64,000 nt of DNA from the human T2T-CHM13v2.0 reference genome, Homo sapiens. The DNA lies in the NCBI RefSeq assembly GCF_009914755.1, contig NC_060941.1; one strand, given 5' to 3'. The position numbers were made by a program, and so were the translations under genes. Numbering within the stretch: the stretch's first letter is position 1; each line of letters begins with the position of its first letter. Below, in pieces: positions 12,564 to 14,891 of the stretch. Under the pieces are notes generated by a model. The model was given only the letters and a program-made list of their open reading frames with translations. It searched no databases and had not been told where the DNA came from.

Positions 12564-12722
12564 AAATTAGCATATAATGAGCAGTGAGGACAACCAGGAG
12601 TCCCTTTCATTGCCATCTTGGCTTTGGTGGGCTTTGGCCAGCTTCTTTACCGCATCTTATCAGTGGAGTCTTTGTGACCTGCATCTTGTGAAGCCAGTCC
12701 TGCCCACCTCCTGTGTCACCCC
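12563..12722 (-). mobile_element. MER41-family LTR fragment (inverted relative to 13493-14162)
   Basis: Reverse complement of 13501-13647 (aaaattagcatataatgagcag...ccagtcctgcc). Confidence 0.75.
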
Positions 12723-13492
12723 CAGCTTAGAGATCTGCATACAGTAAAATTACTACTAGCTTTCTCCTGAGGCCCTGCAAGCTAAAGCTTATACCTTGTG
12801 ATACAGGCGTGTCAGATTGCCACCACTTTCCTGCTTTATAACTAAAGATGCTTTTGAGTCTAATACCTGGATAGACTGTGTCCAGCATTAACCTTTTTTT
12901 CTTCTGTTCTCATAAAAATCTCTCTTATTAAAAATCTGTTTGGCTTTGTATTTCAGACAACAGAAGACTAGTTTTCCAGCCTATTCACTTAGATTCCAAA
13001 TGGCATCTGATCTCTTATTTTTTTCTTTCTTATTTTTTTAAAGAGACAAAGTCTATGTTGCCCGGGCTAGTCTCAAAAGCCTGAGCTCAAGTGATCCTCC
13101 TGCCTTGGCCTCCCAAAGTGTTAAGATTACATGCATGAGCCACCATGCTTGGCTTTGATCTCTTCTTTAAAACTGGGCTTAAGTATTTTATGAATTATCA
13201 CTAGGTGCTATTTGATTTTAAAAATATTTGTTATATTCATCAGGTGTTCGGACGGTTCAAGTTTATGTCTTCCAGGCTACAACAGTTTCAGAGAAAAATA
13301 ATTAGTCCAGTGTTCCAGCCTGTGCCACTGCAGAAAAGATGGAGTCCCTATAAGTCATTCGATCAGGTACGAAGACATTTCTATGCCTCCAGAGCAGGTA
13401 GGGATGATGGCCCCTGTTCAGCATGAAGCAGTGACAGAAGATAGATCTCTGTCCTTCTACAACCTCTTAAGATTAAGGACGAGTATGTAATG
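12723..13492. mobile_element. Probable ERV1 (MER4/MER41-group) internal fragment, with an antisense Alu monomer at 13015-13153
   Basis: Lies between the two MER41 LTR pieces; the Alu monomer is clear, the ERV-internal call is contextual. Confidence 0.4.
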
Positions 13493-13758
13493 TCTGAGGT
13501 GGGGATAAGATAGGAGGTTGGCAGGACTGGTTTCACAAAGACTCCTCGTATAAAACAGGATGTGGTAAAGAAGCCAAAACCCATCAAACCAAGATGGTGA
13601 TGAAAGGGACCTCCGGTTGTCCTCGCTGCTCATTATATGCTAATTTTAATACATTAGCATACTAAAAGACATTCCCACCAGCGCCATGACAGTTTACGAA
13701 CGCCATGGCAGCATCTGGAAGTTTCCCTAAGTAGTCTGAAAGGGGGAAGAACCTTCAG

Positions 13759-13788
13759 TTCCAGGAATTCCCACCCCTTTCTCTGGAA
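13759..13788. promoter_or_regulatory. GAS motif TTCCAGGAA (13759-13767) and N4-spaced TTCTCTGGAA (13779-13788) inside MER41
   Basis: Direct match to TTC-N3-GAA and TTC-N4-GAA at the position of the MER41 tandem STAT sites. Confidence 0.6.
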
Positions 13789-13971
13789 AACTCATGAATA
13801 ATCCACTCCTTGTTTAGCACACGATCAAGAAATAACCACAAAAATAGCCAACCAGCAGCCAGTCGGGACTGCTGTGCCTATGGAGTAGGTAACTTCTTAT
13901 TCCTTTATTTTCATTTTTTCTTTTTTGTATTTTTTTAATTCTTAAATTTAAGTAAAAAATTTTTAATTTAT

Positions 13972-14032
13972 AGGGGTTTTCTGGTAAAAACTGGAAAGCC
14001 TGCTAGACAAATTCTAAAAGAGCTGTGATACT
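13972..14032 (-). pseudogene. U7 snRNA retrocopy
   Basis: Minus strand reads AGTATCACAGCTCTTTTAGAATTTGTCTAGCAGGCTTTCCAGTTTTTACCAGAAAACCCCT, followed by an A-rich tail (13913-13971); 12-bp TSD tcctttattttc at 13901-13912 and 14032-14043. Confidence 0.9.
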
Positions 14033-14034
14033 CC

Positions 14035-14040
14035 TTTATT
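14035..14040 (-). terminator. Candidate NLRP1 polyadenylation signal (second copy at 13904-13909)
   Basis: First minus-strand AATAAA I find downstream of the CARD-exon stop codon; both copies lie in the U7 TSD. Confidence 0.6.
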
Positions 14041-14516
14041 TTCTGAATAAACTTCCTTCCACTTTACTCTGTTGGCTTGCTCTTGTAGATCTTCCTGTAC
14101 AAAGCCAAGAATCCACGTGGCCTCCCACGCTGAACCCCAATTTTGGGGCTCACCCTGTGACACAGCCAGAGGCAAATGGTTCCATGTCCCTCCTATTCCT
14201 CTTTGCGCCTGGATGGGATCCGGAGGGCTCTAGGCTTGGCTGCTGTGGCCACCAGATGAGGCTCTATGAGGTCTGCAGGGGTCTTGCCAGCTCCAGATGG
14301 ACATTCCCTGAGATGCTGTTAGGCCACCTGGACTGGGGCCCCCTGTGGCATCCCTGGCATGGACACATAATGCCCAGCAAAGGCATCATCAAAGTTCCAT
14401 TACTTTAGTGCTGGAAGGCAAACCAGATGGCAACTTGTTTGCAGAGAAAGAAACTGAGACCCAAAGAAGGGTCAGCCAAAGCCAGGACTCAAGGGTCAAG
14501 GGCTGGTGTTGATACT

Positions 14517-14891
<375 letters not shown>

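What the first reader, a model, noticed from the sequence alone, without database searches (positions are those of the whole stretch)
13901..14043. U7 retrocopy duplicates the NLRP1 poly(A) signal and puts an Sm site in the 3'UTR
Seen: the 12-bp TSD reads GAAAATAAAGGA on the NLRP1 strand, so the insertion made two AATAAA signals 131 nt apart. Between them is a sense U7 copy with an intact U7-type Sm site (AATTTGTCTAG) and the CTCTTT histone-downstream-element pairing core, but a weakened terminal hairpin. Inference: the 3' end of the CARD-containing mRNA is transposon-built, and poly(A) choice decides whether the U7 module is included. The A-rich tail could also cause oligo-dT mispriming artefacts.
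Basis: partly seen in the sequence, partly recalled or inferred. Interest (0 to 1): 0.7.

Follow-up and report, generated by a model that had tools for sequence, protein, structure and literature searches.

The report
U7 retrocopy duplicating NLRP1 poly(A) signal
A decayed copy of the small nuclear RNA U7 was pasted by the LINE-1 machinery exactly onto the poly(A) signal of the immune sensor gene NLRP1, doubling that signal, and the signal itself sits in an older retroviral-type repeat; this is a tidy but ordinary case of mobile DNA building a gene's 3' end.

Summary
Window 13972-14033 (-) is a full-length U7 snRNA copy (Rfam U7, 63 bits against a cut-off of 34). It is followed by a 59-nt degenerate A-rich tail and flanked by an exact 12-nt duplication, GAAAATAAAGGA, at 14043-14032 and 13912-13901. 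This gives two AATAAA hexamers 131 nt apart on the NLRP1 strand.

The RefSeq mRNA ends at 13881, 23 nt after the distal hexamer, so the annotated 3'UTR contains the U7 copy.

New here: the insertion sits inside a roughly 530-bp LTR-like interspersed repeat lying in NLRP1 sense. Thirty-two paralogous copies act as empty sites, and none carries U7. Most read AGTAAA at the site (21 of 32), so this copy gained AATAAA before U7 arrived. The repeat also supplies the cleavage site and the GU/U-rich downstream element. Alu elements hit the same nick site in two paralogues.

The U7 part looks like a passenger. Its Sm site is exact, but so is that of 53 of 65 genomic U7 copies. Its hairpin is nearly gone (-3.7 against -18.2 kcal/mol, rank 61 of 65).

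Use of the proximal signal remains untested. The case is ordinary: an annotated pseudogene (RNU7-31P) in a transposon-derived poly(A) region.

The parts
13972..14033 (-). U7 snRNA processed pseudogene (annotated RNU7-31P), full length, sense to NLRP1
   Evidence: Rfam RF00066 at 63 bits against a gathering score of 34, model 1-62 of 62. It differs at 8 of 62 positions from the RNU7-1 locus L002.
14003..14013 (-). U7-type Sm site AATTTGTCTAG, exact
   Evidence: The same 11-mer is exact in 53 of 65 genomic U7 copies.
14017..14022 (-). CTCTTT core of the U7 5' region that pairs with the histone downstream element
   Evidence: Present in 56 of 65 copies. Predicted to pair locally with the proximal copy of the target duplication.
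13975..14000 (-). Remnant of the U7 3' hairpin, 3 of 11 pairs broken
   Evidence: non-canonical pairs marked.: -3.7 kcal/mol against -18.2 for RNU7-1, median -11.9, rank 61 of 65.
13913..13971 (-). Degenerate A-rich tail of the retrocopy (59 nt, 63% A, 31% T) with two ATTAAA hexamers (13967-13962, 13939-13934)
   Evidence: 17 of 20 bases are A at 13933-13914.
14032..14043 (-). Upstream copy of the 12-nt target-site duplication, holding the proximal AATAAA (14040-14035)
13901..13912 (-). Downstream copy of the 12-nt target-site duplication, holding the distal AATAAA (13909-13904)
   Evidence: The annotated mRNA end lies 23 nt downstream.
13881..13881 (-). Annotated 3' end of NM_033004.4 (last base, the A of a CA)
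   Evidence: Hub gene table (exon 13881-14836). Sequence read.
13826..13854 (-). GU/U-rich stretch 27-55 nt past the annotated end, the likely downstream element of the distal site; it is part of the LTR-like repeat and is kept in the paralogues
14044..14162 (-). 5' part of the LTR-like interspersed repeat (sense to NLRP1), upstream of the insertion
   Evidence: query 439-572; pieces reaching window 14070-14162 in 8 of 8 loci. Alignment.
13503..13900 (-). 3' part of the same LTR-like repeat, downstream of the insertion
   Evidence: 79-84% identity to 40 or more genomic copies. Alignments.
13759..13767 (-). GAS-like motif TTCCTGGAA inside the repeat; the partner motif 21 nt upstream is broken by a 1-nt insertion
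   Evidence: 14 of 32 paralogues keep both motifs, 16 keep one, 2 keep none.

Best explanation
Three layers of mobile DNA make this 3' end. (1) An LTR-like repeat of about 530 bp (probably of the MER41 kind; name unverified) lies in sense orientation across the end of the NLRP1 last exon. It provides the poly(A) hexamer, the CA cleavage site and the GU/U-rich downstream element. (2) In this copy the family's usual AGTAAA became AATAAA. (3) Later the LINE-1 machinery nicked the bottom strand just 5' of GAAAATAAAGGA and reverse-transcribed a U7 snRNA with an A-rich tail. Repair duplicated the 12-nt target, giving two AATAAA hexamers 131 nt apart. The distal hexamer kept the native cleavage site and downstream element and is the annotated signal. 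The mRNA therefore gained 131 nt of 3'UTR: U7, the tail and one copy of the target duplication. The U7 segment has since decayed as a passenger, losing its hairpin partly through CpG-type transitions in both arms. Shown: the anatomy, the clean insertion, the order of events and the state of the paralogues. Inferred: LINE-1 as the agent, that the distal site dominates in cells, and that the U7 segment is neutral.
For: The U7 match is strong (63 bits) and the 12-nt duplication is exact and unique in the window.

The locus has the family anatomy. Among 65 genomic U7 hits, 23 have flanking duplications scoring 12 or more, against 0 of 65 in a control with mismatched flanks. 37 of 64 have 20 or more A in the 40 nt after U7. 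The real gene L002 has neither feature. Marz et al. 2008 (PMC5054213, passages and Table 1) count 91 human and 95 macaque U7 pseudogene loci and call such loci retrogenes with poly-A tails.

The empty site is documented. In 8 of 8 paralogous repeat copies the two flanks are contiguous with a 12-15 nt overlap. None of 32 aligned paralogues carries U7.

The order of events follows from the hexamer counts. The paralogues read AGTAAA 21, AGTGAA 3, AGCAAA 3, AATAAA 2, ATTAAA 1, AGGAAA 1 and AGTAAT 1 of 32. Both window copies read AATAAA.

The LINE-1 endonuclease target is used repeatedly. Alu elements sit at the same nick site with their own duplications in L066 and L068.

The distal site fits the annotation: the mRNA end at 13881 is 23 nt after the distal hexamer, at a CA, with the GU/U-rich stretch at +27 to +55.

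The U7 part looks decayed. The hairpin scores -3.7 against -18.2 kcal/mol (rank 61 of 65), 8 of 62 positions are changed against a family median of 7, and the Sm site is exact in 53 of 65 copies, so its intactness is uninformative.

Poly(A) sites derived from transposons are common: about 8% of human sites, of which 639 are LTR-associated with a plus-strand bias (PMC2553571, passages).
Against: I saw no 3'-end sequencing data, so use of the distal rather than the proximal hexamer rests on RefSeq annotation alone.

The proximal AATAAA is followed by a CA 11 nt downstream and then by U-rich U7 sequence (45% U over 40 nt, including the UUUGUCU of the Sm site). That could serve as a downstream element, so appreciable proximal use is not excluded.

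The Sm site and the 5' pairing region are intact, so a function cannot be ruled out from sequence.

The tail (63% A, 31% T, 59 nt) is longer and less pure than in most copies. Part of it could be something other than a decayed poly(A).

The nick site (TTTC/TG on the bottom strand) only approximates the LINE-1 endonuclease consensus as I recall it.

The repeat could not be named. The window copy gave no significant match to the tandem-GAS element upstream of AIM2; only paralogues did.
Confidence: 0.8

Rival explanations
1. The duplication created a working tandem poly(A) pair. A substantial share of NLRP1 mRNAs end at the proximal site, inside the first third of U7, and lack the U7 body and A-rich tail. 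The choice differs between cell types and changes mRNA stability or translation.
For: The proximal hexamer is canonical, has a CA 11 nt downstream and 45% U in the next 40 nt. A long-read immune-cell atlas reports cell-type-specific NLRP1 isoforms and a general role for alternative 3'UTRs (PMC11133395, passages), though it says nothing about this site.
Against: The hub's RefSeq table lists no exon ending near the proximal site. The native downstream element stayed with the distal copy. The last four bases of the proximal hexamer are predicted to sit in a 9-bp stem with the U7 CUCUUUU region (-9.6 kcal/mol, z -3.37, 1 of 200 shuffles as stable), which would hinder recognition. The two isoforms would differ by only about 140 nt of non-conserved sequence.
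Confidence: 0.12
2. The embedded U7 module is a functional cis-element. Its Sm site recruits Sm/LSm10/LSm11 or the SMN complex to the NLRP1 mRNA, or its 5' region pairs with histone-downstream-element-like sequences, altering the fate of the mRNA.
For: The Sm site and the CTCTTT core are exact.
Against: The same Sm site is exact in 53 of 65 copies and CTCTTT in 56 of 65, so this is the default state of U7 pseudogenes. The hairpin next to the Sm site has decayed to -3.7 kcal/mol, rank 61 of 65; as I recall, U7 and other Sm-class RNAs need that hairpin for assembly. In a fold of the last 400 nt of the mRNA, the Sm site is only about half unpaired (0.48).
Confidence: 0.03
3. The copy is an independently transcribed variant U7 gene rather than a retrocopy.
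For: It is full length. Marz et al. mention variant U7 sequences reported from HeLa cells (PMC5054213).
Against: Its flanks are a target duplication and an A-rich tail, not the sequence seen after the real gene L002. It lies inside an mRNA exon. The hairpin is lost. I made no formal search for snRNA promoter elements; the upstream sequence is the LTR-like repeat.
Confidence: 0.01

Closest known systems
Human U7 snRNA processed pseudogenes (RNU7-nP series)
   Same: Full-length U7 with no gene flanks, an A-rich tail and a target-site duplication. The divergence is typical: 8 of 62 positions against a median of 7. The locus is already annotated as RNU7-31P (hub table). 91 such loci were counted in human (PMC5054213).
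   Different: It lies in sense orientation inside the 3'UTR of a protein-coding mRNA, and its target duplication contains that gene's poly(A) hexamer. The tail is unusually long and impure (59 nt) and the hairpin is among the most decayed (rank 61 of 65).
Transposon-derived poly(A) sites (Lee, Ji and Tian 2008, PMC2553571)
   Same: The hexamer, cleavage site and downstream element all lie in an LTR-like repeat in sense orientation. This matches their class of LTR sites that hold the whole core region, with a plus-strand bias.
   Different: The hexamer is about 120 nt from the repeat's 5' end and is AGTAAA in most copies. It looks like a weak internal motif sharpened by mutation, not the element's own terminal signal. 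A second retroelement then split and doubled it.
MER41 LTRs with tandem STAT1 (GAS) sites near inflammasome genes such as AIM2
   Same: The repeat family carries two GAS-like motifs 21 nt apart in 14 of 32 copies. The only tandem-GAS element in 20 kb upstream of the AIM2 HIN exons aligns with paralogues of the repeat (147 of 235 identical, E 5e-11). A review places two tandem GAS sites of a MER41 LTR 220 nt upstream of the AIM2 start (PMC7663688, passage).
   Different: The window copy itself gave no significant match to the AIM2 element. It keeps only one motif. It lies at the 3' end of its gene, not at a promoter. No repeat library was available to name it.
LINE-1-mediated mobilisation of small nuclear RNAs (U6/L1 chimeras and others)
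   Same: Target duplication, A-rich 3' end and an A-rich nick site that Alu insertions use repeatedly.
   Different: No LINE-1 sequence is recognisably attached to the U7. I did not compare the tail with LINE-1 3' ends. The papers on U6 (PMC4476161, PMC6789731) were seen only in search listings.

Membership tests
U7 snRNA (Rfam RF00066), as a sequence family | Covariance-model score at or above the gathering score over the full model | tested here: met
   63.0 bits against 34, positions 1-62 of 62.
Functional U7 snRNA gene | Stable 3' terminal hairpin next to the Sm site | tested here: not met
   -3.7 kcal/mol against -18.2 for the RNU7-1 locus. 3 of 11 pairs are broken, and the hairpin is absent from the MFE fold of the 62-mer.
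Functional U7 snRNA gene | Gene-type flanks: snRNA promoter elements upstream and a 3' box downstream, rather than a duplication plus A tail | tested here: not met
   The flanks are a 12-nt duplication and a 59-nt A-rich tail. The upstream sequence is LTR-like repeat. No motif search for promoter elements was run.
Functional U7 snRNA gene | U7-type Sm site and the 5' region that pairs with the histone downstream element | tested here: met
   AATTTGTCTAG and ACAGCTCTTTTAG are exact. They are also exact in 53 and 38 of 65 copies, so this does not discriminate.
LINE-1-mediated processed pseudogene | Target-site duplication flanking the copy plus its tail | tested here: met
   12 of 12 nt, unique pair in 64 kb, 0 expected. 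Score 12, against 0 of 65 controls reaching 12.
LINE-1-mediated processed pseudogene | A-rich 3' tail | tested here: met
   59 nt, 63% A, degenerate.
LINE-1-mediated processed pseudogene | Clean insertion relative to an empty site | tested here: met
   Tested with paralogous copies of the host repeat, not orthologues. 8 of 8 are contiguous with a 12-15 nt overlap, and 0 of 32 carry U7.
LINE-1-mediated processed pseudogene | Endonuclease-type nick site (T-rich/A-rich on the bottom strand) | tested here: inconclusive
   The bottom strand reads TTTC/TG, close to the recalled TTTT/AA consensus but not identical. The same site took Alu insertions in L066 and L068.
Transposon-derived poly(A) site | Hexamer, cleavage site and downstream element inside a recognisable interspersed repeat | tested here: met
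   The repeat spans about 14162-13503 at 79-84% identity to 40 or more copies. The annotated end 13881 lies inside it.
MER41 LTR | Sequence match to a named MER41 copy or library model | tested here: inconclusive
   Paralogues match the AIM2-upstream tandem-GAS element at 63-74% over 68-235 nt (E down to 5e-11). The window copy gave no hit. No repeat library was on hand.
Regulated tandem alternative polyadenylation | Measured use of both sites | not testable with these tools
   No 3'-end read data. RefSeq lists only the distal end (hub table).

The most novel reading that the evidence does not exclude
The U7 retrocopy is not inert. Its 5' region (GCUCUUUUA), which in real U7 pairs with purine-rich histone downstream elements, pairs with the purine-rich duplicated target (UAAAGGAGU) and hides part of the proximal AAUAAA. 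The retrocopy would thus silence the extra poly(A) signal that its own insertion created. Melting of this stem, or binding of Sm/LSm proteins next to it, would switch NLRP1 between 3' ends. That would make a snRNA pseudogene a cis-regulator of an inflammasome sensor.
Probability: 0.05. Interest if true: 0.6.

Novelty: new member of a known kind. Interest (0 to 1): 0.22.

Why it matters
The value is mainly for annotation and method. The last roughly 280 nt of the main human NLRP1 mRNA are lineage-specific mobile DNA: an LTR-like repeat plus a U7 retrocopy. The 3'UTR end therefore cannot be compared with rodent Nlrp1 genes. Anyone mapping NLRP1 3' ends with oligo-dT should expect false ends around 13914-13936. 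The case also shows cleanly that A-rich poly(A) signal regions attract the LINE-1 endonuclease: the same nick site was hit three separate times among 33 copies of one repeat. The resulting target duplication can double a gene's poly(A) signal without harm when the distal copy keeps the downstream element. None of this changes what is known about NLRP1 function.

Tried and rejected
- **The repeat finder:** it returned an error when given a minus-strand region. I used an exact-pattern search with shuffles instead.
- **Paper searches:** 'RNU7-31P' found 0 papers. 'U7 snRNA' + pseudogenes + LINE-1 found 1 paper, unrelated by abstract. NLRP1 + 'polyadenylation signal' found 18 papers, 15 listed; none concerns this site by title or abstract, and I read passages of only one, PMC11133395. 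MER41 + NLRP1 found 2 papers; I read a passage of one, which ties MER41 to AIM2 and GSDMD, not to NLRP1. Three searches failed on term format. Two were rephrased. The look-up of U7 in PMC4476161 was dropped.
- **Orthologue or paralogue of the whole 3'UTR as an empty site:** the own-genome search found only the locus itself plus copies of the repeat. No other primate genome is held, so presence or absence across primates was not tested.
- **Naming the repeat through AIM2:** located AIM2 through its HIN and PYRIN domains, fetched 20 kb upstream of the HIN exons in two calls and compared. Default BLAST found only Alu matches. A sensitive BLAST linked paralogues, but not the window copy, to the one tandem-GAS element there. 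Result: 'MER41-like', unproven.
- **Dating:** 8 of 62 differences and 79-84% pairwise identity of the repeat say 'tens of millions of years' at best. I give no date.
- **Rejected readings:** a chance direct repeat, and a live U7 gene.

Full report
**What is there**

On the minus strand, which is the NLRP1 strand, the sequence reads in this order:
- repeat-derived 3'UTR;
- GAAAATAAAGGA at 14043-14032;
- a 62-nt U7 copy at 14033-13972, sharing its first two bases with the end of the 12-mer;
- a 59-nt A/T-rich tail at 13971-13913 (63% A, 31% T);
- GAAAATAAAGGA again at 13912-13901;
- 20 more nucleotides to the annotated mRNA end at 13881.

Rfam's U7 model matches end to end at 63 bits against a gathering score of 34. 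The 12-mer occurs only at these two places in 64 kb, with none expected in 100 shuffles. AATAAA therefore occurs at 14040-14035 and 13909-13904, 131 nt apart.

**The U7 family in this genome**

A search of the window's own assembly with the U7 model scored 65 places. The tool calls this a lower bound. The NLRP1 copy ranks 52nd. One place, on contig 12 (L002), has no A-rich tail and no flanking duplication. It lies on the chromosome and near the coordinate that Marz et al. list for the human gene (PMC5054213, Table 1). I take it as RNU7-1.

I extracted all 65 copies; L042 needed a relaxed anchor.
- 23 of 65 have flanking duplications scoring 12 or more. A control that pairs each upstream flank with another copy's downstream flank gave 0 of 65.
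- 37 of 64 copies other than the window's have 20 or more A in the 40 nt after U7.

The NLRP1 copy is thus an ordinary member of a known class. Marz et al. counted 91 human and 95 macaque loci and describe such loci as retrogenes with poly-A tails. The hub table already names it RNU7-31P.

**State of the U7 copy**

- It differs from RNU7-1 at 8 of 62 positions. The family median distance to the majority sequence is 7.
- The Sm site is exact, but so is it in 53 of 65 copies. CTCTTT is present in 56 of 65. Intactness is therefore the default and says nothing about selection.
- The hairpin has three broken pairs of eleven. Two of them are at positions where other copies and the gene have CCGG or CTGG and this copy has CCAG in both arms, the pattern expected from CpG decay.
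- Predicted stability is -3.7 kcal/mol, against -18.2 for RNU7-1 and a median of -11.9, rank 61 of 65.

From recalled knowledge, not tested here, Sm-core assembly on U7 depends on that hairpin. Binding of Sm/LSm proteins to this mRNA segment is therefore unlikely.

**What the insertion landed in**

This part is new relative to the finding. Searching 1.1 kb around the site against the genome returned the locus itself plus many places at 79-84% identity. These match the stretch that begins exactly at the distal 12-mer (window 13912 down to about 13503). Some also gave a second piece matching window 14162-14029.

In 8 of 8 such loci the two pieces abut in the other genomic copy and overlap by 12-15 nt, which is the single target site. 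I aligned 32 paralogous copies with the two window flanks entered as separate rows. Both window 12-mers fell on the same columns, and no paralogue has U7.

The host element is about 530 bp without the insertion and lies in NLRP1 sense. Most copies begin with TG, and the window's subgroup (with L066, L071, L072) ends in CA where their flanks diverge from each other. I call it LTR-like. It contains the hexamer, the cleavage site and the GU/U-rich stretch at 13854-13826, which the paralogues also keep.

'Transposon-built 3' end' is therefore true, but chiefly because of this older element. [quoted passage not shown] The situation is common.

**Order of events**

At the hexamer position the 32 paralogues read AGTAAA 21, AGTGAA 3, AGCAAA 3, AATAAA 2, ATTAAA 1, AGGAAA 1 and AGTAAT 1. 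The window's nearest relatives L071, L072 and L091 read AGTAAA, as does the upstream duplicate in L066. Both window copies read AATAAA. The simplest history is a G-to-A change in this copy before the U7 insertion, which then duplicated an already canonical signal.

**A repeatedly used nick site**

- In L066 an Alu of about 283 bp, and in L068 about 608 bp of Alu sequence, are inserted at the same position. Their A tails abut the site and they have their own duplications starting at the same G.
- Three further copies (L079, L083, L088) have A runs abutting the site. I did not follow these up.
- Among the 65 U7 copies, 5 have a canonical hexamer inside both duplicates (L024, L025, L051, L052 and the window).

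A-rich signal-like motifs are thus ordinary targets. What is special here is only that the motif was a gene's working signal.

**Which signal is used**

The annotated end at 13881 is a CA 23 nt after the distal hexamer. The repeat's GU/U-rich stretch lies 27-55 nt further on. The hub's RefSeq table lists no exon ending near the proximal site.

The proximal hexamer lost the native downstream element, but it is followed by a CA at +11 and by U7 sequence that is 45% U. It cannot be dismissed on sequence alone.

One feature may disfavour it. The 39-mer around it folds into a 9-bp stem between UAAAGGAGU, which includes the last four bases of the hexamer, and the U7 GCUCUUUUA. The fold scores -9.6 kcal/mol, z -3.37, with 1 of 200 shuffles as stable. 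The same stem appears in the fold of the last 400 nt of the mRNA. This is a prediction only.

The tail adds two ATTAAA hexamers and has 17 A in 20 nt at 13933-13914. Some 3'-end heterogeneity and oligo-dT internal priming 33-52 nt upstream of the true end are both plausible.

**Name of the repeat**

14 of 32 paralogues carry two GAS-like motifs 21 nt apart, 16 carry one and 2 carry none. The window keeps one, at 13767-13759. A review states that two tandem GAS sites of a MER41 LTR lie 220 nt upstream of the AIM2 start (PMC7663688, passage).

I located AIM2 by its HIN and PYRIN exons and fetched 20 kb upstream of the HIN exons. That region has one tandem pair of such motifs. It aligns with paralogues of the repeat at 63-74% over 68-235 nt, with E down to 5e-11, but not significantly with the window copy. 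The repeat is therefore probably of the MER41 kind or a relative. This needs a repeat library.

**Verdict**

The finding is a new, well-documented instance of known processes, of low to moderate interest.

**Not checked**

- Other primate genomes.
- Any 3'-end or CLIP data.
- Supplements of the cited papers, which I did not open. Supplementary tables of PMC2553571 or PMC11133395 might already list this site.

Noticed in passing
L066 (G000:C20, about 16269486-16270170) and L068 (G000:C18, about 46352040-46352660): In two paralogous copies of the LTR-like repeat, Alu elements are inserted at exactly the nick site used by U7 in the window, each with its own target duplication starting at the same G. 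Three more copies (L079, L083, L088) have A runs abutting the site.
   Followed up: partly
window 13759-13790 (-): One intact GAS-like motif (TTCCTGGAA) lies 114 nt past the NLRP1 poly(A) site, inside the repeat. Its partner 21 nt upstream is broken by a 1-nt insertion. 14 of 32 paralogues keep both motifs. This may be a remnant of an interferon-responsive LTR enhancer next to an inflammasome gene.
   Followed up: partly
window 12565-12718: A partial copy of about 150 bp of the same LTR-like repeat lies in the opposite orientation, about 800 bp beyond the main copy.
   Followed up: no
window 13041-13153 (-): A weak Metazoa_SRP match (41 bits, below the gathering score of 70), which is an Alu-type fragment between the two repeat pieces.
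   Followed up: no
L005, L016, L025, L034, L037, L038, L041, L044, L045, L052: 10 of 64 genomic U7 retrocopies have a C-rich stretch (9 or more C in 16 nt) between the U7 3' end and the A-rich tail. It is not present after the real gene and remains unexplained. It may reflect 3'-extended or tailed U7 templates.
   Followed up: no
L011, L018, L021, L023 and others: A subgroup of U7 retrocopies has T...A instead of C...G at one hairpin pair (GGTTTTC...GAAAACC), a compensated pair that suggests more than one source sequence over time. The window copy has the mixed state C...A.
   Followed up: no
L024 (G000:C1:27985987-27986048): Another U7 retrocopy whose target duplication (17 of 21 nt scored) contains AATAAA. 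I did not check whether that site is also a gene's poly(A) signal.
   Followed up: no
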